In this document: positions 1 through 38,332 of the stretch, one piece after another
Layout: the number at the start of each line of letters is the position of its first letter
Numbering within the stretch: the first letter of the stretch is position 1
Virus record (IMG/VR): IMGVR_UViG_3300005077_000047
Span: 1 to 38,332 of that record
Reading direction: 5' to 3' (one strand)
Origin: a virus
Taxonomy: Duplodnaviria; Caudoviricetes
Length of the DNA stretch: 38,332 bases
The notes under the pieces: model-generated
What the model was told of the DNA's origin: nothing
Seen by the model: only the letters and a program-made list of their open reading frames with translations
The model's database searches: none
Program-made: the position numbers and the translations under genes

Positions 1-99
1 TGACATTCATCTATCGCAGTTTCTGTAGATAAAGATGGAGCTACTGGTGGTAATAATTGATATTGAAAAGATATTTTTCAAAGATCTTGAACGGCATAA
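1..99 (+). CDS. 3' end of an upstream gene (partial, unknown product)
   Basis: With TGA=W frame 1 reads WHSSIAVSVDKDGATGGNNWYWKDIFQRSWTA to TAA at 97-99, 6 nt before the next ATG. Confidence 0.55.
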
Positions 100-105
100 G
101 AAAAA

Positions 106-981
106 ATGAAATTTGTAAATAAAAATACTCTTAAAAACATAACGGTTGGTACGATTTCAAGCGACTGAACTGTAAAATCTATGTGAACTGCATTAAACGT
201 TTTCGATGATATAACTAATTCTAGTTGGAAAAATATAACAAAAAAGGTTTTACCATATCAAGAAGTATTAAGCGGTTATACAGATTATCTTAATGTTTCT
301 AACACGAATGTTGTTGGTGTAACAAGATCTTTAAGTTCAATATATTCTAACACAGATTTATCAAATGTGACTTATTATATTTCATTATCATCTGTAGGCG
401 ATAGTTTAGTTCCGAGATCATTTTATTATTCTAATGGAACTTCTTCATATAGAGATTACGATTCTTCAGAAATCACATCTCCTTCTAATAGAGTTGGAGT
501 AATAAGGAAAGATGGAACTGCTAATAATTACGGCTTTGTTTATTATGACAAAGGAATAATATTGTTAAGTGGCGAATTAGCAACAAATCTTTCAACGTGA
601 TCAAATATATCAAGTTCTGGTGCTTTGTTAAAATATTCTACATATTTAGATCAGTATGAACATAAATATTGTTGTAACATAAATAGAAAATCTAACATAG
701 TTTCTTCTAACTTAAGTTATTGAACATCGGTTGATCAAAATAATGATACACTAACATCTTCTTTGACTGCATATTGAGCAGAGTTAGGGATAACAGAATA
801 TTCGATTACTGGAAACGTTAATGATTGATTGATTATAGAAGAACAAGAATATCCAATTTACGTAACTGGAATCGGTTTGTATGATGATTATAATAATTTA
901 GTCGCTATAGCTAAACTTCGTCGTCCTCAAGTTGTCTTTGACAACTCAAATATGAGCTTCATTGTAAATTTACGATTTTAA
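106..981 (+). CDS. Putative baseplate/tail structural protein (291 aa)
   Basis: ATG 106 to TAA 981 with TGA=W; includes track ORF 367-600. Ser/Thr/Asn-rich; the C-terminal PIYVTGIGLYDDYNNLVAIAKLRRP resembles baseplate/tail-associated proteins of large myoviruses. Confidence 0.6.
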
Positions 982-995
982 TTTAGGAAACATTT

Positions 996-1544
996 ATGAA
1001 TCAATCACTTTTTATGGGACTTGACATTTCAACGTCTCACATTGGAATATGTATAACAAGTAGAGATGATAAAATCTTACATTTTGAAAATTTAGATCTT
1101 TCTAAGTTGGGCGAAATAACAATTTATGAAAAAGCGAAATATTTTAGATTGAAAATGATTGATATTTTTGAACAATATGAAAACATAGAAAAAATTTATT
1201 TAGAACAAGCTTTATTGATGTATAAAAATGCTTCTTCTAGAATTCAAATTATAGTTCTTCTTCAACAATTTAATGCACTTTGTCAATTCATTCTTAATGA
1301 ATTAGGGAAAACAGTAATACTTGTTCCAGCTAGTACGGCAATGAAAGCTGCTATAGGGTTTGGAAGAAAACCAAAATACGTAGATGATAAGAAAATTTGA
1401 TCAGCTGAAATATTTGCAGAAAAACATCCAGAAACACAATTAAAGAAATTTGAAAAAGGAAAAAACGAAGGAAAAATTCATAGTGATATGTACGATATTA
1501 TCGATGCATACTTTCTTTCTAGATCTCATCTTTTAGGCAAATAA
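996..1544 (+). CDS. RuvC-like Holliday junction resolvase (182 aa)
   Basis: RNase H-fold acidic motifs GLDISTSHIG, IYLEQ and C-terminal DMYDIIDAY. The last motif is reached only by reading through TGA at 1398-1400. Confidence 0.8.
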
Positions 1545-1548
1545 TCAC

Positions 1549-1556
1549 TATATATT
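1549..1556 (+). promoter_or_regulatory. TATATATT putative phage promoter element
   Basis: Intergenic, upstream of primase; the same motif recurs in other intergenic gaps. Confidence 0.5.
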
Positions 1557-1573
1557 AAATAAAAAGGTGAATT

Positions 1574-2518
1574 ATGACAAAAGATGAAGCTATTCAAAAA
1601 ATTATTTCTGTTCTTGGAGAACCATACGGAACTGGTGATGAGCTTTCTTTTTCATGTTGTAACAAAGATTGTTCTAGTCATCAAAAAAACAAGAAAAAAC
1701 TTTCTCTTAATACAATAAGCGGAAAATGACATTGTTGAGTTTGTGAAATTAGTGGAAATAGTTTTAGTTCTTTATTAAGATCTTGTGGTGAAAAGGGTAT
1801 AAGAATATCTAAAGAAAATTTAGATGAGTTTAGTAGCGTAAAAGAAAATCTTGAAAAAATAGATGTATTAGAAACAAAAGAAAAAATAAAATCAATAGCA
1901 ATTCCATCACAATTTAAACCAATTATTTCTAATCAAGACTTAGATTCTGATTACTTTAAACAAGCTCTAATTTATTTAAGAAAAAGAAAACTTTCATATT
2001 TTGATATCATAAAATATAGAATTCACTACAATACAGAAAAATATCAAATTTTGATTCCAAGTTATGATAACAACGGAGATATTCTTCTTTATTTCATAAG
2101 AAATATATTTGATTCATGAAAAGAATATCCGAGTGTTGAAAGAACAAAAATAATTTTTAACGAATTATTCATAGATTGGCAATCACCAATTATTTTGACA
2201 GAAGGTATTTTTGATGCTTTTACAGCTGGATCTAACGCTATACCATTGCTTGGCAGTAACATCAAATCTGATCATCTTCTATTTAAGAGAATAATCAATA
2301 AGAAAAGTGAAATCTATATAGCGTTAGATCCAGACGCTAAAGATAAGATGATGAAAATATCAAAGCTTTTTCATAGTCATGGTATAAAAGTTAATGTTGT
2401 AGAATTACAAAATGGTGACATAAATGAATTAGGAAAAGAAGAATTTAAGAAATGTTTAGAAAATTCTTATGTATATAATGATATGAGAGACATAAAATCT
2501 AAACTTCTAAGTCTATAG
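1574..2518 (+). CDS. DNA primase (Zn finger + TOPRIM), 314 aa
   Basis: N-terminal CCNKDC..H..KWHCWVC zinc-binding region (both W = TGA); TOPRIM motifs TEGIFDA, ALDPDA and GDIN; AAGGTGA RBS. Confidence 0.88.
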
Positions 2519-2532
2519 ATTGGAATAAAAAA

Positions 2533-2811
2533 ATGATAGACAAAAAATTATTGGGACCACAAACAAAAAAAAGCGTTTTAGATTATTTTCGTAAGACAGG
2601 AACTTACATTAAACCATCGACAGCTGAAGATGAGTTATTTCTATGAATAGAATATGGTTTTAACGAGTATTGTATAGAATGTATTAATACGTGTAAACAA
2701 CATGGAGCGTGTAAAATTGTACAATGTCCAATGTTTGAAAAAGACACAACAAGAAAATCAGTTAATAAAACAACAACTAAAACAAAGAAAACAAAAACTG
2801 GGAGTAAATAG
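2533..2811 (+). CDS. Small Cys-rich hypothetical protein (92 aa)
   Basis: Fills the gap exactly; YCIECINTCKQHGACKIVQCP plus a Lys/Thr-rich tail; its TAG overlaps the next GTG start. Confidence 0.65.
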
Positions 2812-5800
2812 TGATAATTGTTTCAATAAGTGATTTACACATAAGGATAGCTAGCAGACACAAAGAATATCACAAAATCTTCACAAAATTTCTAAAACAA
2901 ATAAAAGCTCTCCAACCCGACTACATCTTTAACTTAGGTGATTTGTTCCATAACAAATTAACACTAAGTCCAGAATCGATTATGATTACACGATGATTTT
3001 TTTCTGAACTATCAAAAATATGTAAAGTTGTATCAATAGTGGGAAACCACGATATAAATCTTACAAATTTAGATAGACCTAATTCCGTAGAAGCGGTGCT
3101 AGAAGGAATTGAAAATCAAATAATTTTAGCTAAGAGTCAATATGTTGAATTAGAAGACGGTTTGGCTGTTGGTGTTTTTTCTATCCTCGAACAAAAAGAA
3201 ACATGACCAAAAACACTATCCGAAAAAAATAAAAAGAACAATATCAATATAGCTTTATATCATGGAGCTGTAAATTTATCTCATGATGATTCTGGATTTG
3301 CTATTGATAATTCTATTGATTCTAATGAATATTTCAAAGATTATGATTTTGTAATGTGTGGAGATATTCATAAAGCCGAACAGTTAGATAACGAAGGTCG
3401 TATTTGAATGACAGGCAATATGATTCAACAGAATTTTGGCGAATCTCTTGATAAGGGATATTTAGTTTGAGAAATAGAATCAAAAAATAAATGAAAAGTA
3501 AGAAAAGTTGATATAAAAAACGATTATAATTATATCACAGTATTTATTGATGATGATGATTACGAAAAAAATATACAAAATATTTCTAAAACACTCAAGA
3601 AAAATGCAGTTACTCAAAAGAGTAATGTACGAATAAAAATTTCTACAGATAAAATTTCTGATCAAACTTTTAAAGAAAAAATTAAGACATATGTTATTAA
3701 TGAATTTGGTGTTACACCAATTCTGAATGATGTGTATTCATTTAAGTCAAACGATTTTGTTATATCTTCACCAAATAAATCGATTAATTTTGCAAATAAT
3801 AATGTTCAAAATCAACTTATTCAAAATTATATTAATGAATCGATTATTAGAGAAAAACTGAATGTAGAAGAAATTATAAAGATCAATAATGAACTAAATC
3901 AAGAAATAGGATATCTCAAAGATAATAGTGATGATAGTATATGAGAACCAATCGATTTAGAATTAAGTAATATTTTTTGTTTCGGTGAAAACATAAAATT
4001 AGATTTTAAGAAAAAATTGAGAGGATTAGTTGGTCTTTTCGGGAAAAACGCTTCTGGAAAATCTAGTTTATTTAACGCTTTAACTTTTGCAATATTTGGA
4101 AAGAGTATTAAGAAAGTAAATATTCAAGATATTCTTAGACACGGAAGTTCGCACGGAAGTACAAAAATAGTGTTGAAAAAGGGAGATTTTATCTACAAAA
4201 TAGAAAGATCAATATCTGGTTCGAAAAAACAAAATCATGTAAGAAATAACGTTTCGTTTAATCGATATAATTCAGAAACAAAAGAATGAATTTCATTAAA
4301 TCAGGAAACAATTCCAGAAACAAATAAAGAAATTACAAAGTATTTTGGTACATTTGAAGATTTTTTGATGACTTCCATGAGTACTCAAGAAGATTATAAT
4401 CTTTTTATTAATAGTGGAAATTCTAATCGTAAAGATGTAGTTATGAAAAATTTAGGTCTTGGTATTTTTAAAGAACTTTACGATTTATCTAATCAAAAAA
4501 TCAAACAAATTGGAGATGTTATTGACCATGTTGATGATACAGATATTCTTATAACAAAACTTCAATCTTTAAGAAACAACATATTTGAAATAGAACAGCT
4601 TCAAGATCAATATGACACGATAATTAAAAATGAATCTAAACTATCTAAGGATCTAGAAAATCAAATAAAAGATCTGTCAAAGAACGTATTTTTTGTTCCA
4701 CAGTGTGATATAAATGAAGAAGAAGTAAAGAAACAACTAGAAAAAGTTACTAAAAAGTTCGAAGATGTAAATAGAGATATTGCTCATACTGTGTCAGAAG
4801 TTAGAAAACTTAAACAACAAATAGAATTAGAAGAATCAAAAATAGATGAATTAAAAAAAGAAATAGAAAAATCTATAAAGAAAAAGAATTCAGAAGTTGC
4901 AGTATTGAATAGTAATGTTTCTCGTTTAGAAGAAAAAAATTTAGAACATTCTTCTATCAATTGTGATAGATTCGATTGTAGTCTTCTTCGTTCTTATAAA
5001 GAAGATATAGATAATCTAACTCGTTATAAAGAAGAATTAAAAATAAGAAAAGAAGAACTCAAAGAATTAGAAAAAAGAGAGAATTTTATAAAAGATCAAT
5101 TTCATATTCATCTTTCTCTTAAGGAATATAAAACAAAAGCTTCTGGATTATTGAAGGACGCAAAATTATTAGAACAAAAGATAGAGACTTATTCTAATCA
5201 ATTGAGAGATTATGAAAACAATAAAACAACTATTAGAAACAACGCAATAATTTTAGCACAAATTGATAATTTGAATGAACAAAAAAATAATAGTGATATG
5301 AAAGTTACAAAAGCAACGTCACAAAAAGAAGTAGATAAAAGACTGATATCTGAATATGAAGACAGAATAGAAGAAATTAATAATACTCTCGAAAAGATAA
5401 GAAATATGAAGAAAAAATTAGAAATTCTTATTAATTACAAAGATATTATGAATCCAAATGCTCTTCCAAACATTTTATTAAATTCATATGTTGATCTCTT
5501 TGAATTAGAAGTCAATAGAATTCTAAGTTCTTCTACCGATTTGTCCGTAAAAGTCAACCTTCTTAACAAAAAAGACGCAAAGAATACAGAACTAGAAATT
5601 AATTACATGAATTCTTCTAGAAATCCAGATTTAATGCCAATAGAATTAGCTAGTGGTGCAGAAAAAATGTTGCTATCTCTTTCCATTAGAGTTGCTTTGA
5701 TAAATATTACTTCTATTCAGAAATCTAACATATTAATTGTTGACGAAGGATTTGGAACGCTTCACAGCGAATGAATTCCAGTTCTCAAGAATCTTTTTGA

Positions 5801-5918
5801 ATCTTTTAAAGAAATGTTTCATTCAATTATTATAGTTAGTCACCTTGATTCTATTCAGGATTTACCAAATATTATTATAAATGTTGCAAAAGAGAATAAT
5901 GTGAGCTTTTTATACTAA
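2811..5918 (+). CDS. Fused SbcD/Mre11 (gp47-like) nuclease - SbcC/Rad50 (gp46-like) ATPase, 1035 aa
   Basis: Track ORFs 2811, 3732, 4017 and 4365 share one frame and are separated only by TGA. Phosphoesterase motifs SDLH, GDLFH, GNHD, HG and GDIH; Walker A GKNASGKSS; coiled coil; signature ASGAE; Walker B LIVDEGFG; H-loop IVSH. Confidence 0.92.
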
Positions 5919-5941
5919 ATGATTGTTTTTCAAAACTGGTG

Positions 5942-5949
5942 TATATATT
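5942..5949 (+). promoter_or_regulatory. TATATATT putative promoter upstream of bS21 gene
   Basis: Intergenic GGTGTATATATT; GGTGTATATA also precedes the scaffold gene. Confidence 0.5.
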
Positions 5950-5983
5950 GAAAAGTAATATCTTATCTAATGTGGGAGGTTTC

Positions 5984-6313
5984 ATGTCTAAAAATAGTGC
6001 TTGTAACATTTATTTAACAATCAAAAAAAGTAACGTTAGAACCGAAGAAGAAGAGAGTGATCGAATGATTAATCTTTTTTTCAAAAAATGAAAAGAATCT
6101 AATCTAACAAAAAATATTAGAAAAAATGAAAGTTATGAAAAACCTTCTGTCACAAAACACGACGATAAGAGAAGAAGAATTCATCTTAGAGAAATTAATG
6201 AAAAGATAATTCTCGGTAAACTAAAACCTAGAAATAAAAGATTGCATCAGCAAATTCTTAATGATTTCAAAAATGGAAAAATTTCTGTTAGAAAAAACAA
6301 GAAAGGAAAATAA
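5984..6313 (+). CDS. rpsU: Ribosomal protein bS21 homolog with basic C-terminal extension (109 aa)
   Basis: DRMINLFFKKWKESNLTKILEKNESYEKPSVTKHDDKRRR fits the bS21 pattern (alrrFKr..k.gil.e.r.re.YEKPs..r); RBS GGGAGGT at 5974-5980. Confidence 0.72.
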
Positions 6314-6316
6314 GAC

Positions 6317-6625
6317 ATGGGACTTTTCAAGCTGGATGAAAATGTCAATTCTCGCTATAGTCAACTTTTGGGAGAAAGCATTTTAAAAGATGATGTACAT
6401 CTTAAATCATTTTTTGTAGAGGGTAGTATTTATGATCCTTGATTAGAAGATGTAGAATGAGTTTTTTTGAATGATCTCAAAGAAGACTACGAGGGAGTCA
6501 AAATTAATTCTACTAAAAATAGAATATCTTTCTTATTTATTGATGAATATGCTCGTAATAAAGCTCTTAATATATTAGAAACAAGATTTAAAGAATTTAA
6601 TATCAAAACAACTCTTGTAAACTAA
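6317..6625 (+). CDS. Hypothetical protein (102 aa)
   Basis: ATG 6317 to TAA 6625 with two TGA=W; tiles between neighbours. Confidence 0.7.
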
Positions 6626-6637
6626 GAAAATAAAAAT

Positions 6638-6982
6638 ATGCTTCCTACATCAGAAACTATTTATATCCAAAGAGGTACGTACGGTACTTCGTTGGAATTT
6701 CGTTTATACTCTGGAGAAACTTCTAAAGATCTTCCAGCTAGTTCTTATAGTAAGATTATCTTAAGAGCATATTCATATCCCGATATGAATTTATTTTTTA
6801 GTGGAGATGTAGATCAAACTCTTAGTTCAGTAACAACAAATGAAGTAACTTACACTTTTAAAGAGAGTGATACTCTCAAAGAAGGAGCGTTTAGTTTGAA
6901 ACTAGAATTACTTAATCTTTCCGGAATTTCTATAGTTTCGAAAGAAGTTGTGGATTGTGGAAAACTTAAAATAGAAAAATAA
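6638..6982 (+). CDS. Ig-like/BppU N-terminal-like virion protein (114 aa)
   Basis: TIYIQRGTYGTSLEFRL...VTYTFKESDT..G.F.LELE pattern resembles BppU_N-like beta-sandwich proteins. Confidence 0.55.
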   Translation: MLPTSETIYIQRGTYGTSLEFRLYSGETSKDLPASSYSKIILRAYSYPDMNLFFSGDVDQTLSSVTTNEVTYTFKESDTLKEGAFSLKLELLNLSGISIVSKEVVDCGKLKIEK

Positions 6983-6984
6983 AA

Positions 6985-7080
6985 ATGCAAATAATTAAAG
7001 CAATAATCAGATACATAAATAATAAAGCAACTGTTCGATATACTCGAACAGTCGTTAAAGTTAGATTGGTTTCACTATAG
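6985..7080 (+). CDS. Possible small basic protein (31 aa)
   Basis: MQIIKAIIRYINNKATVRYTRTVVKVRLVSL fills the gap exactly; no recognisable motif. Confidence 0.4.
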   Translation: MQIIKAIIRYINNKATVRYTRTVVKVRLVSL

Positions 7081-7088
7081 GAGAAACT

Positions 7089-7445
7089 ATGAAGTTAATA
7101 ATTGCCGGCGATAGAAACGTTACAGACATCAGAATAGTAAAAGAAGCTCTTCTTCAGTTTCATAATGAACATCCAGACTTCAAAGTTACAGAAATCGTAA
7201 GCGGATGTGCAAGAGGAGTCGATACTCTCGGCGAAAGAATAGCAGAAGAATACAACATTCCAGTTAAAAAATTTCCAGCTGATTGAGAAAAATTTGGAAA
7301 AGCAGCTGGTCCAATTAGAAATATACAAATGGCAGAATATGCTGATGGTCTTGTAGCAGTTCTTGTAGAGACTTCTAAAGGAACTAGAAGTATGATCAAA
7401 GAAGCAACAAAAAGAAATTTGATAATTAGCATTAAAGAAATATAA
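7089..7445 (+). CDS. SLOG-superfamily DUF2493/YspA-like protein (118 aa)
   Basis: MKLIIAGDR, IVSGCARGVD, FPADW(TGA)EKFGKAAGPIRN..MAEYAD, SKGTRSMI. Confidence 0.85.
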
Positions 7446-7457
7446 GTGGGAGGCTAC

Positions 7458-8855
7458 GTGGATAAAACAAAACTATCTCAGTATGAACTTGAAAACTATG
7501 ATAAGATCTGTGAAATAGAATCTGATATGTCTTCTGAAGAAGACTTAAATTTTATTCATGATTTTTTCATTAAGATGTGAGAAAAGTATGATTATAAAAC
7601 AGAAAAAAGACCCGTAATTATTTTCTCAACTCCGTCATTTACGGGAACAGATTGGTTTAGATTAAGAGTTCCCCTCTATAATCTTTGAAAGAAACACGCT
7701 GACAAGTACTATATCATACTTACAACAGCTTTCAATTTAAATATGATGAAACATGCAGATCTTATTATTTCTCACAGAGCTGGTGATATGCATCTTTATT
7801 CTCACAAAATAGAATCTATGTGACCATCTTTTATTAAGAAACCAATTATAATTCACGAAGTAGACGACAATGAATTCAACCTTCCAGATAGTCATCCACT
7901 TAAATCAATGTGATTACAAGCTGGAAAGGATCAAATGTCTAAAAAACAAATTGCAAATGCTCATTATGTAACTACAACCGGAAGAGTTCTTAAAAGAGAG
8001 TTTTCTAGACTTAATCAGTTTAATAAAATTGAAATAATTCCAAATGCATTTCAGTGATCTCATAAGCAATGAGACATTCTTGATTGAGAAGAAAAAGAGC
8101 TAAGAAAACCAGAAAGAGCAAGAAATAGAATAGTTGTTGGTTGAGCCGGATTAACAAGCCATTTTCCAGACTTAGTTAAAATGCTTAAATGTTTGAAGGG
8201 TATTCAATCAAAAACTAAAGAAAAAAATCCTTATTTTATTTTATCCGGCATGCCGACAGAAGATAGAATGACAATGACAGGTCCAGATGGAAAACCTATG
8301 CAAATAGAAACTCCAAAAGAACATAGATATTCTTATCGTATTTTAAATGGTTTTCAAATGTCAGAAAAAGAAAGATTCGAAGGTTATATACCAGCATTAG
8401 GATCTGAAAATATTGAAGGACAGGATGTTAAATCGCTTTGAAATTATGGAGAATTTTATGATCAATATGATATTAATCTCGCTTATCTTGCTGAATTTAG
8501 CGTGTTCAACAAATCAAAATCAGCGATTAAAGTTATCGAAGGTTTTCGAAAAGGAGCAATATCTGTTTGAACAGAATGAGGAGGTTATCAAGAATTTCTA
8601 GAAAATCTTCCATCGGATCTTAATGTTATCGCTTCTAAATATATGTCTGCAAAAAGTGATGAACAATTTATTGATAATGTTGTTTATTGAATAAATGCTG
8701 ATGAATCTTATAGAAGAGAAATTGTTGAAAAATTTAGAAAATACGTTACAGAAACTTTTGACATTGAACAAATCAATAAAAAGAGAATAGATATCTATGA
8801 CAAGATCTTATTCAAAAATAAAAATGGAGATGGCTCAAAAGATGAAAATAACTAA
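7458..8855 (+). CDS. GT-B fold (GT4-like) glycosyltransferase (465 aa)
   Basis: GTG start after GGGAGG; motifs WFRLRVP, HEVDDNEF, VTTT, IIPNA, VGWAGLTSHFPDL, DINLAYL..FNKSKSAIKVIE. Confidence 0.8.
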
Positions 8856-9102
8856 GGGTATGATTAAAGAGATCATAAAAGAAGAAATAGATAATTATGA
8901 TCCTAACTCTTATTCTAAAAGACTAGCTCAAAAGTTGATAGCTCAAAAATTAGTTTCACCTCAATCTAGTGAACAAGATATCTTAGATAAAGCTCGAGCT
9001 TTAGCTTCAAAAGAATTGGGCGTGAAAACAGCAAACTTTTTATTTTCGTTTGATGAGGATTTTCCTAGTGAAGTTATATCGTACGTTAAAAGTGCCAGAT
9101 AA
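8842..9102 (+). CDS. Hypothetical protein with 'IIKEE' leader (86 aa)
   Basis: Begins MKITKGMIKEIIKEEI; start chosen from the motif (track start 8797). Confidence 0.7.
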   Translation: MKITKGMIKEIIKEEIDNYDPNSYSKRLAQKLIAQKLVSPQSSEQDILDKARALASKELGVKTANFLFSFDEDFPSEVISYVKSAR

Positions 9103-9126
9103 TAAAGTAAGGAAATCTAAAAAGAA

Positions 9127-9576
9127 ATGAGTAAAATAAAAATACCAAAAAAACTATTTAATGAAATTCTAGCTGAAATCATTATAGAAGAAGGACACTA
9201 TGCTGATCCTATTCCTAAGAAGAAACTAAAAGAAGCGATGGGAGCCGGGGATACACCTATTCCAACCGATAGGGGCACTCAACCACTACCAAATCCAAAT
9301 AATGATGAAGAAAACGTTCCAATTTCAGATCAAGAAGAGTTAGCTTTAAAATCAAGAGCAATTAAAGAAGGTATCATGGATTGATTTAAAGCTTTCAAAA
9401 TAAATGAAGATACAATCATGTTAAAGCATGGAAACAAAGCTATTATTTCTGATGGAACTGGAGATAGTTATTATGTTGTCTTTAAAGTTGCGAGTTGAAA
9501 TCCGCCTTCTGTTAAAATTAAAGAAATGAAAATAGTAGACATATCTGATTTTGGCGATTTACCTCAGGAACTTTAA
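9127..9576 (+). CDS. Hypothetical protein with leader motif (149 aa)
   Basis: MSKIKIPKKLFNEILAEIIIEE; extends through TGA 9382 to TAA 9576. Confidence 0.7.
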
Positions 9577-9580
9577 TGAG

Positions 9581-28703: not shown

Positions 28704-28736
28704 GAAAAGGGAGATTCGTTCTCCCTTTTCTTTTTT
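28704..28736 (+). terminator. Rho-independent terminator
   Basis: GAAAAGGGAGA-TTCGT-TCTCCCTTTTC-TTTTTT. Confidence 0.9.
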
Positions 28737-28746
28737 ACAAAATAAG

Positions 28747-28754
28747 TATATATC
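28747..28754 (+). promoter_or_regulatory. TATATATC putative promoter
   Basis: Immediately after the terminator, before ATG 28802. Confidence 0.5.
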
Positions 28755-28801
28755 TCTAACTCCAATCATTAAAAGTAAAAATTAAAAGGAGATATAATTT
28801 A

Positions 28802-29341
28802 ATGAAAGATCAAACAAAATTATCAACAGCTCAGTTAAAAAAAATTATTAAAGAAGAAATTATAAGATTTTTTCTTGAATCAAATAAAAAACAAATAAAA
28901 GAACTTAGAATTAATGCAGATAACTTAGATAAACACTTTAGACCAAGACCAGAAGGTGGAATAAGTTCTAGATTATTTGGAAGAAAAGGAAATGTTTATG
29001 ATGAACAAATTGAAGCTATCGAACCTTTTGTTAAAAATTGAATGAAACAAAATCGTCACAAATACGGAGTTTTTAGTGAATATTATGCATATATAGAATG
29101 AGCAAAGAAATATCATAGTAGATTACCGAAAGAAATTGAACAAAAATTACAAAAATATGATAACGTTTGAGATGATTATGTTGAGTGATTTCAGACGTCA
29201 GATCATGTCTGAAAAAAAGATCCCGATAGATATCCCGTTGGTTGGAATAGAAAAGATTCAGAAACGGGTAAAAGAGATGAAATACCTGGAAGAAGTGATT
29301 CAGAAAATCGACGCAAAAGATGACCCGGTTCTAATTTATAG
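28802..29341 (+). CDS. Hypothetical protein with leader motif (179 aa)
   Basis: KLSTAQLKKIIKEEIIRFFLES...IKE; Trp-rich C-terminal half via TGA; TAG overlaps the next GTG. Confidence 0.75.
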
Positions 29342-29931
29342 TGAAAAAATATATAAAAGAGAATTCTTTAGAACCCGATTGATATTCTTCTTTTTCTCCA
29401 GAAGCTATCGATGGGACTGTTAGAAACAAAGTTATAAACAATTCTAAAAAAAAGAAGTATATAGCTAAAACAAGCAAAAATCTTATGAAAAAAGCAAAAT
29501 TTAAAGATAGACCTGAAAATTCAATAGGCATAAATGAATCAAATTTAGAGGAAAAGAAAATAATGACTTCATTAACAAAATCATATCTTATTAAGATAAT
29601 AAATGAAGAAAAACAAAAAATTGAAGAAAAGTGAGGACCATTTAGACGTAAACCGTGAGGTAAATCTGGGAATGAATATATTGATAATTTAGAAGATTCT
29701 GAATATAATCTTTATGGCCAAGAATTTGTTGATACTGCTAATAAACAACTTCAGCTTATTTATAACACTCTAAATAAAGCTTTACTTGCTGGTAAAAATA
29801 GTGATCTAGAAACCGGTGAATCTTATGGTTATAAACAGGGTGGAGAACAAGAACAAAAACTTATTCAAGCTATTAAGCTTATTAGACAAGCAAAAAGTAT
29901 AATAAATTCTATAGACGCAACAGAAGAATAA
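29341..29931 (+). CDS. Hypothetical protein with N-terminal and internal leader motifs (196 aa)
   Basis: GTG start MKKYIKE; internal SLTKSYLIKIINEE; TAA at 29929-29931. Confidence 0.7.
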
Positions 29932-29946
29932 AAGGGAACATATAAA

Positions 29947-30156
29947 ATGAAGAAATCAGATTTAACAAAGTTAATAGAAGAAACTATTAAAGAAAATAAT
30001 GTTGAACAAATAAAAAATTCAGTAGGAGAACGCGAATTCAACATGTTTGTAGATACTTTTCAAGATTTTATAAGTGCTATGTTTGAACAAAACTTTAGTG
30101 CTAGAGAAATAAAATGATTTATTAATGATTTAATTGACAGTCAATTGATTTACTAA
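29947..30156 (+). CDS. Small hypothetical protein with leader motif (69 aa)
   Basis: MKKSDLTKLIEETIKEN; one TGA=W. Confidence 0.7.
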
Positions 30157-30171
30157 TAGGGTTTAATAAAA

Positions 30172-31332
30172 ATGGCGACTCAAGAATTTAGAAATATATT
30201 TCCAGAAACCGTACCGAATTCTTTATCTTCGGAATATATTAGTTTTGAGTTGTGAGTTAAATCTCGTTTGGGTGATGATGTTGCTTCTGTTGAATTAAGT
30301 CCTCAACAAGTTTGATGAGCTTTACAAGAAGCAGATCAGGAATTTTCTGCTGAAGTTAATACAGTTTATATGAAAAATTATATGTCTCATTTTTATGGAA
30401 TGTCTCAAAATCAAAATGCTGGTGGTATCTATCCTAATTTTACTTATTCTTATTTAACTCACATAACACAAGGTATTGGAGATCTTGCTGGAATTGGTGG
30501 TGATAATCGCGATTTCTTGGGTTATATTACGCTTGTTGCTGATCAACAAGATTATCCATTAGATACATGCCTTTATGATAGAAATGGAGTTCTTGTAGAT
30601 TTTACAAATGGAGTAGAAATAAAAGAAGTATATTACAACGATTTAGATACTACTTCTCGTTACATCGATACTTGATCTTACTACAATATTATGGCTGGTG
30701 AATTTGGTGTTCAATCAGCTCTTTATAATACAATGTTTGCAATGCTTCCAGTAAATGCTAACGTTATGATGATGCAACATGTTAGATATAATAATAAGTT
30801 AAGACTAAGTAATTATACATATGAGATGTACGGCGATCAACTTTTAAGAATATTTCCTTCTCCAAATACCAGTGATAAAAAAATCTATATAAGATTCAAA
30901 CATAAACAACCAATTGATTCTACAATTTCCATAACAGGTTCTGCTAGTGGTGGTACTGTCACAGCTAATGATACAAACATTGTTGGAAATTTTGCTCAAG
31001 TTAAATTAGATCCTTTTAATTGAGATTCTTTGAATGGAATAGCAAAAAGATGAGTTAGAATGTATGGTCTCGCTATTTGTAAAGAAATTCTAGCTTTCAA
31101 TAGAGGAAAATTTAAAGAAATACCTTTTGCTTCAGAAAATAACATGGTTCAACTAAACTGAGATATGTTATCTAGTCAAGCAAAAGAAGAACAAAAACAA
31201 TTGAAAGATCTTTTAAGAGAAGATCTTAAAGACATTATGAATAATGCAGAACTATTGAAAAGAGATGCCGATGCTTTAGAACAAGTTCAAAGACAATTAA
31301 CATACGTGCCTCTTTTCCCGTATTGGAGATAA
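30172..31332 (+). CDS. Neck/head-tail adaptor protein (T4 gp13-like), 386 aa
   Basis: WVKSRLGDDVASVELSPQQV, LRIFPSP, WVRMYGLAICKEILAFNRGKF, QLNW..L..QAKEE. Confidence 0.85.
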
Positions 31333-31349
31333 TTAAAGGAAAAAATAAA

Positions 31350-31643
31350 ATGAAACAAATAAAAACTATAAAAATGTTAAGAGAAGATATTAGAAGAGAA
31401 AATGAATTGTCTGGTTATATAGATTTAGAAGATGCATCAGAAGAACTTTATAGAAAAATGGAGAAAGATATTTTTGATAAAGGAAATCTAGATACATTTT
31501 CTAACTATTTCGAACTTTTGCAAGTTGATTATGGAATCATCGATGCTTCAACAGCTGAAGAACTTCTTTTTAGATACGATAATTACAAAAAAAGATTAAA
31601 TTGAGAAATGAATCAGGGAGATATCACAAATGAAGAAATCTAA
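31350..31643 (+). CDS. Hypothetical protein (97 aa)
   Basis: MKQIKTIKMLRED...; extended through TGA to TAA 31641-31643. Confidence 0.7.
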
Positions 31644-32814
31644 AATTAATGAAAATAAATGTTTTATTATTATGAAGAAATCTAGGGCTTATGATAATCC
31701 AACTCCAAGAAATGCATACAGAGGACCTGCTGCTGAAAATTTAGCAAAAGATAATCCTGAATTTAAACCTGGCCAAGTTTATGGTTCTCGAGAAGAAGCT
31801 GAAAAGTGAGCAAAAGAATTAACAAGATATAATGGAGTTGGTTTTGAAGTCATTCCTCTTCAAGATTTCTATTCAGGAAGTGGAAATTGAAATGAAGGGA
31901 TGCATGAATCAAAAAAAATAAATAAAAAAGTTATAAAAGAAATGGGTAGAGGAAGACCAAAAAAGTACGAAATCATCATAGATCCGGATACTGGAGAAGA
32001 AATTAAAGTTCCGATTTCTGGAAAAGAAGAGAAACTTGATAAGAATATCAAGCTAGTGTATGATCCTATTTTACAAAAATATGTATCTAAAGAAGACGAT
32101 TCGATTCTCGGAAATGCTGGTAAAGACGATCCTACAGAATTAATGAAACAATATTCTCCATTTAGAATTAAAGAAAGTGATATCGCTAAAGCAATAAGAT
32201 CTTCTCTTAAAGAAATGGATACTGGTGGATTAGCCGTCGGTGTTGCTGGTGGAAACGCTGTTATCGATGATCCAGAAGGAGATAAAAATAAAATTAGTGG
32301 CGAAGAAGAAGTAGAATCTGAAGAAGTCATCGAAGTTAGAAAACATATACGCTCTATTCTTATGAAAGAGTTTATTAAAAATAAAAAACAAAATGTCGAT
32401 ATGCTTGAAGCCAAACTAAGAAAAGAAATTGAAAATTTCTTAAAAGAAAAGAATGAAGTAAGAAAATTTGTGGCAAAAAAGAAATTAACGGAGGCCAGTG
32501 ATATGAACGATTACGAAATCGACGATGAATTTGACGAAGATTTAAATGATGGCTTCGTAGAAGATGATATGTTTCCAGAAGAAACAGATTCTTCATATCA
32601 ACAACCGATAGAAATGTTAAAGAATTTAATGAAAGATGATTATGATTTAACCGGTAGATTTGGACAATTTGAAGAATACTATACTATTATTTCAGACGAA
32701 TTTGAAATAGCTGATGAAAGTTTAGATGATGATACAAGATCAGAATTAAAATCATGATTCGATTATTATGTAGAAAATCCCGAGGAGTTAAATTATGAAG
32801 AAGATGATTTCTAG
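31630..32814 (+). CDS. Multi-module acidic protein with AT-hook-like GRGRPKK (394 aa)
   Basis: MKKSKINE start in frame with track ORF 31900; frequent IKE/LKE/LTE sites. Confidence 0.75.
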
Positions 32815-32995
32815 AGATCAACTATTAAAAATAATAGAAGAAGAAATTAATTCAAATAAAGATTTACATGTTGACGATAAAATAGATACAACAATAAGAT
32901 TCATGCGTGAAAGAATTTTTCCAACTATGAGCGAAGATCAATTAATTTTATTTCTGACACAACTAAAAAACTGAATAAATAGAATGTTCGTATAA
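32795..32995 (+). CDS. Small hypothetical protein with leader motif (66 aa)
   Basis: MKKMISRDQLLKIIEEEI; TAA at 32993-32995. Confidence 0.7.
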
Positions 32996-32997
32996 TT

Positions 32998-34365
32998 ATG
33001 AAAAAACTTATTAAAGAAGATGGAAACTCAACGTTTTTTAATATACGATATAATATTGCAGAACCTATTAGTGTAATTTGTAACACAGATCATTATGCTT
33101 ACGTAGACAACTCTAAAAATATAATAGTCATTGATAATAGAAAATATTCAACAAAATTTATTGTAATTGGTCATTCTAGTTTAGAAAGTGAATTAGAAGA
33201 ATTGGGAGTATGAGCAGAAAAAACGACTGGAAAAGTTATTTTTTCTTATCATCAAAAAGATCTTCTTCGTTTTAGAATCTTTAAAGCAAGCGATTTTAGT
33301 GTATTAGATTGTGACATTGTTGCTTTTTATACGTCGGAAGAAAATGTAAAAAAAAATTCTAATATAATAAATCAAGTAATAAAAAAAGTTTGTGAAACAC
33401 CAAAAATTTATATAGATTGAGGATTTTTTTCAAAAGAAGATTTACAGAATAATATGAAAAAATATCCAAAAAATTATTTTGAACAAAGAAAGAAAATAGA
33501 CCCACAACTTTCGCAAAGAACCGCTTCTAGAAAATGAATGGACTCTATTTATCAAAAATCTGGAGTATGGGAAAATTATCTTAATTTTAAGATAAAATTA
33601 GAGGAGACTAGCCTTATGCCCGGAAGTGGTGAAATGCCAACGAACATGCCAAATAGAACTCAAAGTCAAAAAGAACAATTAAGACCTAATCAAAATGATT
33701 ATGCTTATGGAGACGATTCAATTGAATGTGAATATTGTAAAGATGGTTGACAAGAAGATGGATCTATGTGTACTCATTGTCAAGGATATGGAATAAGACA
33801 AGAATCTTTAAATTGAGATGATTGAGATATAGATTTTGGACATGATTTAAATACTATGTCAAAAAAAGGTAACTTTAAAGTTGGACAAAGAGTTAGTTAC
33901 GAAGGAAAATTAGGAACAATAATAAAATATAATCTTTTAGGAGCATACACAGTAAAATTTGATGATGGTTCAATCATTAGAAAAATTCATCAATCTGAAC
34001 TTGAACCAGAAGAAGAAAATTTAATTGAAGTTAGTGAAGGTTTTATGGGAAGTGAAGAAAATGAAGATATAAATACAATAAACAACACAACTAGACAAAA
34101 AACTCAAACTGGAATTGGTCATAAGGCGATAGAAAGTTTAGAAAATAGTTTAGAAAATACTAAACTTTCAACAAATATTTTGAAAAAAGTTTCAACTGGG
34201 CAAAACGCCGAATCAGATGCAAACAAATTACTAAACAATCCAAATAATACAAATAATTTAATTGGAAAAAAAGTTGGAGATGTAGATCAAGATTTATTGT
34301 CTTCACTATTAGCTTCTGGTATTATCGAAATAGATTCGAGCGGAATTGTTAGAAAAAAAGTATAA
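32998..34365 (+). CDS. Multi-module protein (455 aa) with DnaJ-like Zn knuckle and SH3/KOW-like barrel
   Basis: Track ORFs 32998, 33538 and 33856 are in one frame; CEYCKDGW..G..CTHCQGYG; FKVGQRVSYEGKLGTII...YTVKFDDG. Confidence 0.75.
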
Positions 34366-34371
34366 TAAAGA

Positions 34372-34803
34372 ATGTTTTTATCTAAGAACGACATAAAGCT
34401 TTTTAATTCTGTTCAAGAAGAATTAATGCAAAATTTTAGACAACAGGAGATAGATTATCTTACTGTTGATAATTTAGAGTCGTTTGATGAAGATGAAAAC
34501 ATCTATAATGAAATAGAAAAAGAAAAATTAATATTTTCAGATCCTATTACTATTTATGCATATGTTCAACAAAATGCTCCCGAATTTGATGTTAATGAAA
34601 TTGGTGGTAAATATAAAAATAGTATTGTAGTTTTTATTCATAAATCTTATTTAGAAGATATGAATTTAGAAATAAAAGAGGGTCAATGATTCAGATGGTA
34701 TGAAAATCTTTATCAAATTCTTCATCAGACTGGAAGACAGGTTCAGATATGGGGAAATCCAGATTGACAAGTTTACAGAAGATTTGTATGTGTACAAAAA
34801 TAA
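34372..34803 (+). CDS. Putative neck/head-closure protein (gp14-like), 143 aa
   Basis: ENIYNE...FSDPITIYAYV...VFIHKSYLEDMNLEIKEGQWF...YQI; located between the gp13-like gene and tail genes. Confidence 0.65.
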
Positions 34804-34831
34804 CATTTAACTATAAAAAGGAAAAAAAATA

Positions 34832-35449
34832 ATGAAACTAACAAAAGAAATTCTTTCTAAAATGATATCTGAAATCATTTCAGAAAAAGCCGAATCTCAA
34901 AATCAACAGATTTCAGCAGCCATAGCTCTTAAAGCTAAGAGAGAGGGAAAGAAATTAAAAAAGGGTACTGCTTCAGAAAGTATGTCAAATATGTCTGAAA
35001 AAGAACTTGAAAAATTTGCTAGTACTAAAAGAAAAGGTCTTCCAAAGAAAAAAGAAGAGAAAAAAGAAGAAAAAAATGAAAGCGTGAAATCTCAAAAATT
35101 AACTAAATCTGTTTTAGAAGAGATGATAAAAAAACAACTTTCTGAAATGGGTGGTAATATGTATGATCAATATCCTCATGATGAAGATGAAGATTATGAA
35201 GAAGAAGGATGTGGAGTAGGTTGTACAGAAGATGGTTGAGATGAAGAATGATTTGAAGAAGTTGGTATTTTACAAAAACTTGATTCATTAGCAAGAGTTG
35301 AATATGAAATTAAAAATGGCATAAGAAATTCTTATGTTGGTATTGGTGATAATACCGCTGAATTTTTGCAAGGTTTAATGAGAATAGCTGAAGAATTAAA
35401 AGATATTTGTGAAGATGCATTAAATACATTGGAACATTACGAAAGATAA
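34832..35449 (+). CDS. Leader + DUF3008-like module + second leader + acidic module (205 aa)
   Basis: MKLTKEILSKMISEIISE; AESQNQQISAAIALKAKR...MSEKELEKFASTKRKGLP (DUF3008 pattern); QKLTKSVLEEMIKKQLSE. Confidence 0.75.
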
Positions 35450-36112
35450 TTGGAAACTCTAAATGTCATAAATGAACTAGATAAATTAGTAGTTCATCAT
35501 TTCAACAAGGAAAAACCTTTTGAAATAGCTGATATTATAGTACCAGTTTCGTTTCTTAGAGGAAATCCTGATACTTTAGCTATATCCGAAATATGATCAA
35601 ACGTACAAGATATTAAATATCCAGTTTTGGTTGTATCAAGAGATTCATCTTTACGGGTTATGTCAGAAAGAAATACGATGCAAACAGAAGGAACTCAAAT
35701 AATTATTAACAGAATTGCAAAAAACAAGTATATATCTTCAAGTGAACCGAATATAAACGTTGAAACATATACTTATAATGCACCAGTTTATTTTTCAACT
35801 AAATATAGTCTGATTTTGTTCTGTGAATCAATGAAACACGCTACAGAATTTCAATCGTTGTTCTTAGACAGAATAAATCAAGAGTATCTTGAAATAAAGT
35901 CTGAAAAATTTAATTCTGTTTTCTTTGACGCTTTATTCTTATTCAAAGATGGATTTCAAATAGAAGATAATTTTGAAAGTACTTCTGAATCTAAAAGAAT
36001 TATAAAAGTTTCTGCGAGTATGAATTGTGAAGGTTATTATATTTCTCAAGCATCTGAAGTAAGAGTTAGAGAAGTTTCGAAAAAAGTATTACAAGCATAC
36101 TTAAGATCTTAA
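35450..36112 (+). CDS. Putative tail terminator/sheath stabiliser (gp15-like), about 220 aa
   Basis: Probable TTG start right after the previous TAA; VPVSF, IKYPVLVVSR, APVYFSTKYSL, RIIKVSASMNCEGY; directly upstream of the sheath gene. Confidence 0.65.
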
Positions 36113-36146
36113 AAAAAAATAAAATATATAAGGGAGAAATCTTATA

Positions 36147-38332
36147 ATGGCAAGAAACCTAGTAAGTGCTGGAATTTCTTTTGGAGAGATTGACTTAAGC
36201 CAAGTAGCTCAAGTTGCAGCTCTCATGGGACCAGCAATTGTAGGAACAACTCAAAGTGGACCTGCTTTTAAACCTATCACAATAAATAATTATTCAACAG
36301 AATTCGTACCAATTTATGGAGGTTTAAATACTTCTCATTATGTTCCTTACACTGCTAAATTTTATCTTCAGTATGGATCTAATGCTAGTATTTGTAGAAT
36401 ACTTGGAACAAACTCTTCTACACCAGCGAAAGATGCTGGATTTATTGTTCCTGCTTCCGCTTTTTGATATGATATTGTGGGTGGTGTAGCCGGTACAGCT
36501 TCTACTACTTCAGAAAGAACTGGCGGCCTTATTCCTTTAGCTGTTCTTAGAGAAAGAAATGGAACAACTACAATCGGCGGAATAACTGCTACATGTGGTT
36601 TGAGTGGTGGAGTTCTAACTTGATCTATCGGATTAGGAGCTGCTAGTGCTGCGGCTACACTTGGAACATATACTTTTAATGTTGATAATATTGAATCTGT
36701 TTTTACAAGAGATCCAATTAATATTCCTGCGTCTCCTGCATGTACAGCTCTTTATTTAGATGTTTTCTATTATACTCAATCATCTGAAAATGCAGCAGAT
36801 CCATATACAACAAAAACAACTCTTTCTGACTTAACATATACTTCAATGACAGCACATGCACCAGGAAAACTTTCTGGAGATGATTTAACTGGCGCTTATG
36901 ATCATGCTGTTACACCATGAATCGTAGGAGCGCCGGATGTTACTGGCGCTGTACAAGACTTGTTTAGATTTCATTCCTTAAGTGATGGAAGCGAATCTAA
37001 TAATGATTGTAAAGTTTCTATTGATAACATAACTAGAAAAACAGATAGTTTTGGAAATCCATATTTTACATTCGATGTTCTAATTAGAAAAGTCGATGAT
37101 AGTGATCTTCAAATGCAAATTTATGAGAGATTTTCTGGATGTAATCTTCTAAAGAGTGATAGAAACTACATTGTTAAGAAAATTGGTGATACAGCTGAAA
37201 CATTTAATACAACATATTCAAGAATGGATATTTCTGGAACTTGACCAAATAAGTCTAAGTTTATTAGAGTAGAAGTTTCAGAAGGTATTCCAATGCACGC
37301 TAGACCATCTGGATTTAGAGCGCCTGAAAGTGTAACGAAATCTGATCATTTAGGATTAGTAGCTTATCCATATAGAAATTTCAAAGTAAGCCAAGCTTCT
37401 GGAAATAGTTTATACAAGAAATCTATTTTCTTGGGATACGATGGACTTTCTATAGGTGCTAGTGAAATGCTTTATGGATGTACAGATGGAGAAGATACTA
37501 GCTATAAAGGAATCATTCTTTTTGATAATGGAATTTGATCAGCGTCAGCTGATGAATTAAATGCTGCAAGAGCTACTTCTTTAACAGCTAGTTTCCACAC
37601 AATTGCTATGTTCCCAAACAAAACAAAATATGAAGAAGCAATTAACGCAAATAAATTAGCTGCAGCTGGTGTAGATTGAAAGTTTACTGTCCCGATGTTT
37701 GGTGGAAGAGATGGTTATAAGAAATCTTTAGGTGGATCTAATCTTATCACAACTCTTAGTGGCGATTTTGAGAAAGCAATGACACTTCTTTCTAATTCAG
37801 ATATCTATGATTTCAATATGCTAGTAATTCCGGGTACTATTGCTTCATATAGTCCTCACGCAGGAATTATCGAAAATGGAATCAATATGGTAGAAACAAG
37901 AGGTGACGCATTCTATATCGCAGACATGTTTGCTTTGACTGCTGATAACGCTTCAGAACCAGATTCTACAACTCTTAATACATTCGATTCAAGTTATGCA
38001 GCAACATATTGACCATGAATTAAGATATATGATAACGAAAATGAAGATTTCGTTTGAGTACCACCTTCAGTTCTTGTTCTTGCACAATTAGCTTACAACG
38101 ATAAGATAGCATATCCTTGATATGCTCCAGCGGGTGTAAATAGAGGTCAAATAGCAAATGCTGTATCAACTAGATATACTTTGAATCAAGATGATAGAGA
38201 CGTTCTTTATGATGCAAGAGTTAATCCTATTGCAACATTTAGAAACGAAGGTATCGTAATCTGAGGACAAAAAACTTTACAAAAAACTCAGACAGCTCTT
38301 GATAGAGTAAATGTAAGAAGACTTCTTGTCTA
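36147..38332 (+). CDS. Contractile tail sheath protein (T4 gp18-like), runs off the window end
   Basis: SAGISFGEIDLS, GPAFKP, FNMLVIPG, SSYAATYWPW, WVPPS, PWYAPAGVNRG, LYDARVNPI, IWGQKTLQ, LDRVNVRRLL. Confidence 0.96.

What the first reader, a model, noticed from the sequence alone, without database searches (positions are those of the whole stretch)
1..38332. Window-wide TGA-to-Trp recoding in a large T4-like phage
Seen: essential genes (terminase, portal, protease, capsid, sheath, primase) are interrupted only by TGA, at positions that are Trp in these families (KWHCWVC, PADW, GNWFY, YWPW, PWYAPAG, IWGQKT). TGG is rare (about ten noticed), and no gene needs TGA as its stop. Known: stop-codon-recoded phages exist, and recoded codons are often concentrated in late genes. 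Here DNA-metabolism genes (primase, RuvC-like, SbcCD) are recoded too. Inference: either the host uses code 4, or the phage switches code early with its own tRNA-Trp(UCA) and RF2 suppression.
Basis: partly seen in the sequence, partly recalled or inferred. Interest (0 to 1): 0.85.

Follow-up and report, generated by a model that had tools for sequence, protein, structure and literature searches.

The report
Aquatic phages reading TGA as tryptophan
This T4-like phage fragment writes almost every tryptophan (170 of 180 codons) with the stop codon TGA, and its aquatic relatives are recoded too; because relatives keep TGA out of their DNA polymerase gene and often their capsid gene, the phage likely imposes the code change on a normal host during infection, although the decoding machinery was not found.

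Summary
Confirmed. The window is an estimated 18% of a roughly 200-kb myovirus, distantly related to Flavobacterium phage immuto. Its 46 genes hold 170 TGA and 10 TGG and end only in TAA/TAG. TGA aligns to Trp and swaps with TGG in relatives; Gly (code 25) is excluded. Twelve of 13 relatives are recoded and form one deep clade. The window alone cannot show an early switch, because primase, RuvC and SbcCD lie inside the virion block in this phage group. Replication modules of two relatives are more telling. Helicase, RecA, exonuclease and SSB use TGA (22 of 32 Trp codons), but DnaE polymerase avoids it (1 of 25) despite saturated silent sites; code-4 bacteria do not (24 of 35). Most relatives' capsid genes also avoid TGA (17 of 68); the window's does not (7 of 8). 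Best reading: phage-driven UGA suppression, starting before replication, in a host that still has RF2 (0.62). A code-4 host remains open (0.2). No UCA tRNA, release factor or TrpRS was found in these fragments; the host is unknown. TGA recoding is known from gut phages, and this scan noted it before in other aquatic phages.

The parts
106..38332 (+). Single-strand gene block read in code 4: 46 genes, 170 TGA, 10 TGG, stops TAA/TAG only
996..1544 (+). RuvC-like resolvase, 1 TGA
   Evidence: phrog_159 E 1e-8
1574..2518 (+). DNA primase, 3 TGA and 1 TGG
   Evidence: phrog_47 E 7.5e-37
2811..5918 (+). Fused SbcD-SbcC-like nuclease/ATPase, 8 TGA
   Evidence: phrog_77, PF00149, PF13476
5984..6313 (+). 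Ribosomal protein bS21 homologue, 1 TGA
   Evidence: PF01165 E 0.0024, below the cut-off; its orthologue in G004 scores E 2e-9, above it; PDB bS21 E 0.001
7446..8855 (+). Glycosyltransferase, 12 TGA and 1 TGG
   Evidence: phrog_7162
9874..10074 (+). Hc1-like small DNA-binding protein, no Trp codon
   Evidence: PF07432 E 2.6e-11
12587..13705 (+). Decayed paralogue of gene 16224-17300, in three frames; holds the one doubtful TGA (12806-12808); absent from a close strain
14536..16224 (+). Large terminase, 15 TGA and 0 TGG; TGA columns align to Trp
17339..19252 (+). T4-like portal (gp20), 6 TGA
   Evidence: PF07230 E 1.8e-66
21623..22438 (+). PAS-domain protein, 4 TGA
   Evidence: PF00989
22746..23465 (+). 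Prohead protease, 4 TGA
   Evidence: PF03420
26304..27935 (+). Major capsid protein (gp23), 7 TGA and 1 TGG despite strong expression-type codon bias (TTC share 0.74). Start put at 26304 because a close strain has a 1-base deletion at 26296
   Evidence: PF07068
27958..27985 (+). Terminator-like hairpin after the capsid gene (consensus match only; 5 such sites found, 5.6 expected)
30172..31332 (+). Head-tail adaptor, 7 TGA and 1 TGG
   Evidence: phrog_211
36147..38332 (+). Tail sheath, cut by the contig end, 11 TGA
   Evidence: phrog_23, PF04984

Best explanation
The phage writes tryptophan as TGA in every Trp-containing gene of the window, and likely decodes it by switching the code of a standard-code host itself, probably with a phage UGA-reading tRNA that competes with host RF2, early enough to make helicase and primase. 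Shown: (1) TGA is Trp; (2) the recoding is shared by a deep clade; (3) outside a few genes TGA use equals the genome's own GA/GG bias, so it is not penalised there; (4) in relatives TGA is kept out of the DnaE polymerase and mostly out of the capsid gene. Inferred: (5) UGA still terminates at some rate, so genes needed before the switch is complete (DnaE) or in very large amounts (capsid) keep TGG; (6) replication cannot start until UGA is read through, because helicase, primase, RecA and exonuclease depend on it, so the switch precedes replication instead of only gating late genes; (7) the window's lineage has a more complete switch, since its capsid gene has moved to TGA; (8) the decoder lies in the unseen four fifths of the genome.
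For: TGA/TGG 170/10 matches NGA/NGG 737/27 in the Arg/Gly boxes (Fisher p 0.20). At 353 aligned pairs with relatives, window TGA faces TGA 178 times, TGG 79, F/Y 48 and Gly 2. The capsid tree has 11 recoded rows as one clade at 100/100; the terminase tree agrees (7 rows, 100). Replication modules G039 and G040 belong to the clade: G039's PolA-like protein is 37% identical to G002's (E 5e-76), against E 8e-5 to immuto, and G039's tetranucleotides match G004 best (r 0.91). There SSB, RecA, exonuclease and DnaB have 22 TGA and 10 TGG, but DnaE has 1 TGA and 24 TGG (p 3.6e-7). The two DnaE genes are saturated at four-fold sites (0.35 identical, 0.32 expected), yet all 8 shared Trp are TGG/TGG, while shared Lys/Glu/Gln are G/G in only 12 of 102. 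Control: dnaE pieces from 5 of 5 code-4 Patescibacteria use TGA freely (24 of 35). Capsid genes of 8 relatives have 17 TGA of 68 Trp codons against 75-88% in their other genes. Precedent: Jade phages carry a suppressor tRNA, RF1 and TrpRS (Borges preprint).
Against: No decoder was seen: no tRNA in the window, none in G001-G005, only a tRNA-Met(CAU) among G038-G041, and no release factor or class Ib synthetase in 10 of 10 records. The DnaE evidence comes from two relatives, not from the window's phage. In the window itself nothing avoids TGA, capsid included (7 of 8), which is what a code-4 host would give. Capsid genes also lean to G-ending Lys/Glu/Gln codons (A share 0.28-0.80), which explains part of their TGG excess, and G039's DnaE is somewhat G-shifted (NGA/NGG 31/16). 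The ORF sets called under code 4 need no TGA stop in the window, G004 or G039, but no early region was seen. The relatives are kin, so the pooled p-values overstate independence. 85% of window genes carry TGA, above the 26-71% clade means Borges et al. give for phages of standard-code hosts and near the 90% for code-25 phages of code-25 hosts, though the window is a late-gene block.
Confidence: 0.62

Rival explanations
1. The whole clade infects a bacterium that itself uses code 4 (no RF2, own tRNA-Trp(UCA)), such as the code-4 Minisyncoccia lineages or an unrecognised one. The phage simply follows its host, and TGG-rich genes reflect tRNA supply or late gene arrival.
For: TGA is at compositional equilibrium. 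The clade is uniformly recoded over about 50% terminase divergence, including a 42% GC member (L010, 14 TGA/20 TGG). Replication genes are recoded. No phage decoder was found. Code-4 Patescibacteria exist (PMC13695967 passages), and five with tRNA(UCA) were retrieved.
Against: DnaE keeps 24 of 25 Trp codons as TGG with saturated silent sites, and code-4 cells show no such avoidance in dnaE (24 TGA of 35). BLAST of window 1-19500 against those five genomes gave only short A-rich chance hits, best E 2.4e-4 (5 genomes and half the window only). Their genomes are about 0.5-0.9 Mb, small hosts for a roughly 200-kb phage (inference).
Confidence: 0.2
2. Mixed history: the clade began as phage-driven recoders, and some lineages (window plus L023; L029) lost the cost of UGA altogether, by removing RF2 activity completely or by moving to a code-4 host.
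For: The capsid gene moved to TGA twice, in separate branches: window 7 of 8 and L023 7 of 9 against sister A 1 of 8; L029 10 of 11 against sister B 1 of 9. The window has the highest TGA share seen (94%).
Against: Counts per gene are small. No dnaE or early gene is known for these lineages. A stronger suppressor in the same kind of host would give the same capsid pattern.
Confidence: 0.14
3. TGA is read as glycine (code 25; Gracilibacteria or Absconditabacteria host).
For: Code-25 phages exist and carry TGA in about 90% of genes.
Against: Gly is 0 of 1710 cells in the terminase TGA columns and 2 of 353 in relatives. Trp would fall to 10 of 12,385 codons.
Confidence: 0.01
4. Decayed genes or an assembly artefact.
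For: One local paralogue is frameshifted.
Against: No in-frame TAA or TAG occurs in 46 genes, the same TGA sites recur in independent relatives, and a strain mostly 95-99% identical is present in two public runs.
Confidence: 0.01

Closest known systems
TGA-to-Trp (code 4) recoded gut phages: Jade, Agate and Sapphire clades (Borges et al., bioRxiv 10.1101/2021.08.26.457843; parts 1-3 of 6 read)
   Same: TGA aligns to Trp; low GC; virion and packaging genes recoded; size estimate similar to Jade (201 +/- 22 kb); some genes avoid the recoded codon (integrases there, DnaE and capsid here).
   Different: The only runs found holding it are aquatic metagenomes. TGA carries 94% of Trp codons, at compositional equilibrium, where Agate has only three gene families that prefer TGA. 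Helicase, primase, RecA and exonuclease are recoded, where the Agate examples keep replication genes in standard code (the paper calls this variable across clades). The clade is uniformly recoded instead of mixing codes among close relatives. No suppressor tRNA, RF1 or TrpRS was seen in the fragments.
Immutovirus (Flavobacterium phage vB_FspM_immuto, MW353177.1)
   Same: Best cultured terminase match (35.7%). Same layout: primase inside the virion block, terminase-portal-protease-capsid, then tape measure, PolA-like gene, conserved small protein, SSB, RecA, exonuclease, DnaB.
   Different: Immuto uses code 11 (coverage 0.93 under code 11; 114 TGG in the stretch) and has few Shine-Dalgarno sites (5 of 48 against 25 of 46). 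It is annotated with family A polymerases, where the clade has DnaE. It lies outside the clade on both trees.
Code-4 bacteria (Mycoplasmatales, Eggerthellaceae, Minisyncoccia JAKLIH01 and GCA-2747955; PMC13695967 passages)
   Same: TGA is the ordinary Trp codon and TAA/TAG are the stops.
   Different: Their dnaE uses TGA freely (24 of 35 in five Patescibacteria); the clade's DnaE does not. No link to any of them was found.
bS21-encoding freshwater phages (Chen et al., PMC9723584 passages)
   Same: A bS21 gene near the virion genes of a large myovirus.
   Different: There bS21 is on the reverse strand beside terminase and capsid, hosts are predicted Bacteroidetes, and the text has no occurrence of 'genetic code'. 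Here it is co-oriented after SbcCD, divergent, and itself carries a TGA.

Membership tests
TGA-to-Trp recoded phages (code 4) | Coding density rises strongly when TGA is read through | tested here: met
   0.47 to 0.94
TGA-to-Trp recoded phages (code 4) | In-frame TGA aligns to Trp, not Gly | tested here: met
TGA-to-Trp recoded phages (code 4) | Structural genes recoded | tested here: met
   56 TGA and 3 TGG in 7 structural genes
Phage-driven code switch (Borges model) | Suppressor tRNA, RF1 or TrpRS on the phage genome | tested here: inconclusive
   None in 10 records, each at most 22% complete; 29 viral tRNA-UCA pattern hits, none tied to the clade
Phage-driven code switch (Borges model) | Genes needed early are compatible with code 11 | tested here: inconclusive
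   Met for DnaE of two relatives (1 TGA of 25); not met for helicase, primase, RecA and exonuclease; no early region seen
Phage-driven code switch (Borges model) | Host uses the standard code | not testable with these tools
   No host link; no spacer database search is offered; one search covered five genomes only
Phage-driven code switch (Borges model) | Lysis genes biased to the recoded codon | not tested
   No lysis gene was identified in the window
Jade, Agate or Sapphire clade | Terminase falls in the named clade | not testable with these tools
Immutovirus | Close marker-gene kinship and shared branch | tested here: not met
   Terminase 35.7%; separate branch on the capsid and terminase trees
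Phage of a code-4 host | No gene-specific avoidance of TGA | tested here: inconclusive
   Met in the window (39 of 39 Trp-containing genes); not met in relatives' DnaE and capsid genes
Code-25 phage | TGA aligns to Gly | tested here: not met
   0 of 1710 and 2 of 353

The most novel reading that the evidence does not exclude
The window's lineage has finished the change: UGA is a cost-free sense codon from the start of infection, either because a roughly 200-kb myovirus infects a free-living aquatic code-4 bacterium, or because the phage removes RF2 activity outright by a device not yet described. The clade would then preserve a graded series from leaky suppression (TGA-free polymerase and capsid) to full reassignment, reached at least twice.
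Probability: 0.25. Interest if true: 0.8.

Novelty: new variant of a known kind. Interest (0 to 1): 0.48.

Why it matters
The usual model treats phage stop-codon recoding as a gate on late and lysis genes. In this clade the replisome is split: helicase, primase, RecA and exonuclease need UGA read-through while the polymerase avoids it. The switch would therefore act before replication, and the TGG-only genes mark which proteins are made under an incomplete switch. The clade is deep, uniformly recoded and graded (41-94% TGA; capsid exemption lost twice), which makes it a natural series for asking how a stop codon becomes a full sense codon. It is also largely invisible to code-11 gene calling. 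The principle, a phage reading TGA as Trp, is not new.

Tried and rejected
tRNA search: ARAGORN and Rfam found none in the window (the MIR403 hit, E 0.34, is chance). A tRNA-UCA pattern gave 29 viral loci; 24 were submitted and 23 searched for the terminase, 6 had distant terminases and none looked like the clade. G013, which has a UCA tRNA and partial recoding, has no such terminase. The capsid scan of species-representative genomes found nothing. Host by BLAST against five code-4 Patescibacteria gave chance hits only. Walking from the end of G002 found only G002; the profile search added proteins without context. The clamp-loader motif was absent from immuto and was dropped. G041, found by the helicase motif, is recoded but closer to immuto, so it was left out of the clade counts. 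L032 (1.6 kb, 3 Trp codons, all TGG) is uninformative. A 5' skew of TGA and a context bias after TGA were not seen. Sigma-70 promoter-like sites are no more frequent than in shuffles (74 against 89). Pfam did not confirm the intein in the split terminase of L001. RNA run X2 holds contigs over nearly the whole window, but contigs of one study cannot show expression level or strand. The structure-atlas check of the bS21 homologue could not be run, so that label rests on Pfam and PDB sequence matches.
Full report
Observation. The window is the whole record G000, which CheckV estimates as 18% complete, i.e. about 200 kb, at 29.6% GC. With TGA read through, 46 genes on the + strand cover 96.7% of it; they hold 170 TGA and 10 TGG, and the 45 complete genes end in TAA (35) or TAG (10). 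One ORF procedure gives coverage 0.47, 0.94 and 0.54 under codes 11, 4 and 15. All 39 genes with a Trp codon use TGA, and the 7 without TGA have no Trp. The families found are RuvC-like, primase, SbcCD, glycosyltransferase, terminase, portal, protease, gp23 capsid, adaptor and sheath. One TGA (12806-12808) lies at a frameshift in a decayed paralogue that a close strain lacks.

Which amino acid. In the terminase, 15 TGA columns against 114 distant homologues give W 986, F 394, E 103, Y 79 and G 0 of 1710 cells; the six closest hits were counted apart, as they may have been translated in code 4. Against code-11 immuto, 14 of 37 aligned sites are TGG, 11 are F/Y and 1 is G. Against recoded relatives, 353 pairs give TGA 178, TGG 79, F/Y 48 and G 2, and 31 of 108 window sites show TGG in at least one relative. 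TGA is therefore Trp. That it is translated so in the cell is inferred; there is no proteomics.

How much. TGA/TGG (170/10) equals the GA/GG bias of Arg and Gly codons (737/27; p 0.20), and TGA is spread evenly along genes. In the window it behaves as the ordinary Trp codon.

Relatives. Scans of viral and metagenome contigs gave 13 distinct relatives with capsid identity of 51-91% or close terminase or portal matches. Twelve show in-frame TGA, and L032 is too short to tell. The TGA share outside the capsid gene is 41-88% in the eight with 30 or more Trp codons. The 11 recoded capsids form one clade (100/100, long stem) apart from five code-11 rows, and the terminase tree agrees. Distant outgroups are mostly code 11, but L011 shows a few internal TGA and G041 is a separate recoded lineage nearer immuto, so recoding arose more than once in this wider group. 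The nearest cultured phage is Flavobacterium phage immuto (35.7%). Two public runs of one aquatic study, one of them RNA, hold a strain mostly 95-99% identical. An RNA-run contig over 24347-27904 has depth 204 against 11 in the DNA run; this fits transcription of the capsid region, but contigs cannot prove it.

Why the window alone does not settle timing. In immuto the primase lies inside the virion block, and the PolA-like gene, SSB, RecA, exonuclease and DnaB follow the tape-measure block. The window stops at the sheath. Relative G002 just reaches that module, with a PolA-like gene (1 TGA, 4 TGG) and a small conserved gene (1 TGA). To see further I scanned viral contigs for a helicase motif (recalled) with Trp written as TGA. 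It gave 4 loci: G038 and G039 (99.98% identical), G040, and G041. G039 belongs to the clade by its PolA-like protein (37% to G002, E 5e-76) and matches G004 by tetranucleotides (r 0.91, next 0.76) and by dataset number. G040 pairs with G039 in all five genes compared. Because the scan selected for one TGA in the helicase, that codon is there by construction in each; removing both leaves 20 TGA and 10 TGG.

The split replisome. In G039 and G040, SSB, RecA, exonuclease and DnaB have 22 TGA and 10 TGG, and DnaE has 1 and 24. The two DnaE proteins are 50% identical and their four-fold sites are saturated (0.35 against 0.32 expected), yet 8 of 8 shared Trp are TGG in both. Recent import from a code-11 donor does not explain this well, although DnaE is more conserved than its neighbours (35-40%). 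As a control, dnaE pieces of five Patescibacteria with a UCA tRNA carry 24 TGA and 11 TGG. G039 has TGA in 23 of 28 Trp-containing genes; the 5 TGG-only genes are DnaE, its neighbour, a HAD phosphatase, a glycosyltransferase and the PolA-like fragment. The capsid gene shows the second exemption: 17 TGA of 68 Trp codons in 8 relatives, against 7 of 8 in the window, 7 of 9 in L023 and 10 of 11 in L029, which sit on two separate branches. For relative A I used 1 TGA/7 TGG, because one search counted an overlapping fragment twice. Part of the capsid effect may be a general G-ending preference in highly expressed genes.

Mechanism. Gene-specific avoidance of TGA means UGA costs something in those genes. 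The simplest cost is termination by host RF2 while a phage suppressor is still accumulating (DnaE), or summed over very many copies (capsid). From established knowledge, RF2 reads UGA, and code-4 cells typically lack prfB (PMC13695967 passages). The switch must come before replication, as helicase and primase depend on it. The decoder was not found: no UCA tRNA, release factor or class Ib synthetase in 10 fragmentary records. Borges et al. found TGA suppressors in only 35% of code-4 genomes even when these were near complete. I put phage-driven switching at 0.62, a code-4 host for the clade at 0.2, and a mixed history at 0.14.

Host. Unknown. Shine-Dalgarno-like sites precede 25 of 46 window genes (23% in shuffles) and 21 of 30 in G039 (31%), against 5 of 48 in immuto. 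This argues against a typical Bacteroidota host. The caveat is a divergent bS21 homologue at 5984-6313, since bS21 helps occlude the anti-SD in Bacteroidota (PMC7797042 and PMC9976891, search listing only; PMC9723584 passages). BLAST of half the window against five code-4 Patescibacteria gave chance hits only.

Known work. Borges et al. (parts 1-3 of 6 read) describe TGA-to-Trp phages of gut Firmicutes and Bacteroidetes, with late genes recoded, replication genes variable, and a code-change module in Jade phages. PMC13037316 (passages) finds alternative codes in 0-0.65% of non-gut jumbo phages. PMC10746230 and PMC7162821 were seen as passages. Seven literature searches showed no paper on this clade in their listings. 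Subscription papers and bioRxiv supplements, which hold the Jade, Agate and Sapphire genome lists, were not visible, so overlap cannot be excluded. Earlier notes of this scan report TGA recoding in other aquatic phages, some with odd tRNAs and one with an exempt capsid gene; none matched the window or P0001 by sequence.

Verdict. A real, well-supported recoding of a known kind, in a clade I did not find described. The variant features are near-complete TGA use, recoding of most of the replisome with a TGA-free polymerase, and repeated loss of the capsid exemption. Interest 0.48.

Noticed in passing
window 5984-6313; L007 4874-5152: Divergent ribosomal protein bS21 homologue right after SbcCD, co-oriented, with one TGA in the window copy; the G004 orthologue passes the Pfam cut-off.
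   Followed up: partly
L001 1472-2068 and 2164-3678; P0002, P0006: Terminase split into two ORFs 95 bases apart, with intein-like ends (Cys about 31 residues before the first stop; His-Asn-Cys in the second ORF; motif recalled, Pfam gave no intein hit). It looks like an early-split intein. P0002, 96% identical to the window's terminase, has the same second half, and run X1 shows a break at 15039-15043.
   Followed up: partly
window 12587-13705: Decayed copy of gene 16224-17300 in three frames, fused to the end of gene 10697-12838; a close strain lacks the stretch.
   Followed up: yes
window 23026-23030 and 27943-27952 (run X1): The close strain has 1104 extra bases inside the protease gene and 1757 after the capsid gene; relatives L003, L004 and L030 carry endonuclease-like ORFs after the capsid gene.
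   Followed up: no
G041 (L217, L221, L222): A second TGA-recoded lineage, closer to immuto: SSB and RecA 0 TGA of 12 Trp codons, helicase 2 of 4, ribonucleotide reductase region heavily TGA.
   Followed up: partly
L029 2614-3369: PAS-domain gene with 0 TGA and 8 TGG in a phage otherwise at about 35 TGA to 4 TGG; the window's PAS gene has 4 TGA. It may be a recent arrival or another exempt gene.
   Followed up: partly
L004 1538-5029: Large protein with an N-terminal 2H phosphoesterase/RNA ligase-like domain (phrog_755) between portal and head genes; such domains include anti-CBASS Acb1 (recalled).
   Followed up: no
G039 16958-26301: Block of sugar-nucleotide and glycosyltransferase-like genes plus tRNA-Met(CAU) between the PolA-like gene and SSB, mostly TGA-recoded.
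   Followed up: no
window 9874-10074: Hc1-like histone homologue (PF07432) among virion genes.
   Followed up: no
L051/L064 (G013, G022): Unrelated 24.6% GC phage with a UCA-anticodon tRNA and a ribonucleotide-reductase-like gene using 8 TGA and 7 TGG, i.e. a recoded nucleotide-metabolism gene.
   Followed up: no
L087, L142, L148, L154: Code-4 mitochondrial-type contigs sit inside bacterial genome bins of the species collection.
   Followed up: no
L011 344-1117: Distant terminase relative (30%) with a few internal TGA at Trp-like positions: low-level recoding in yet another lineage.
   Followed up: no
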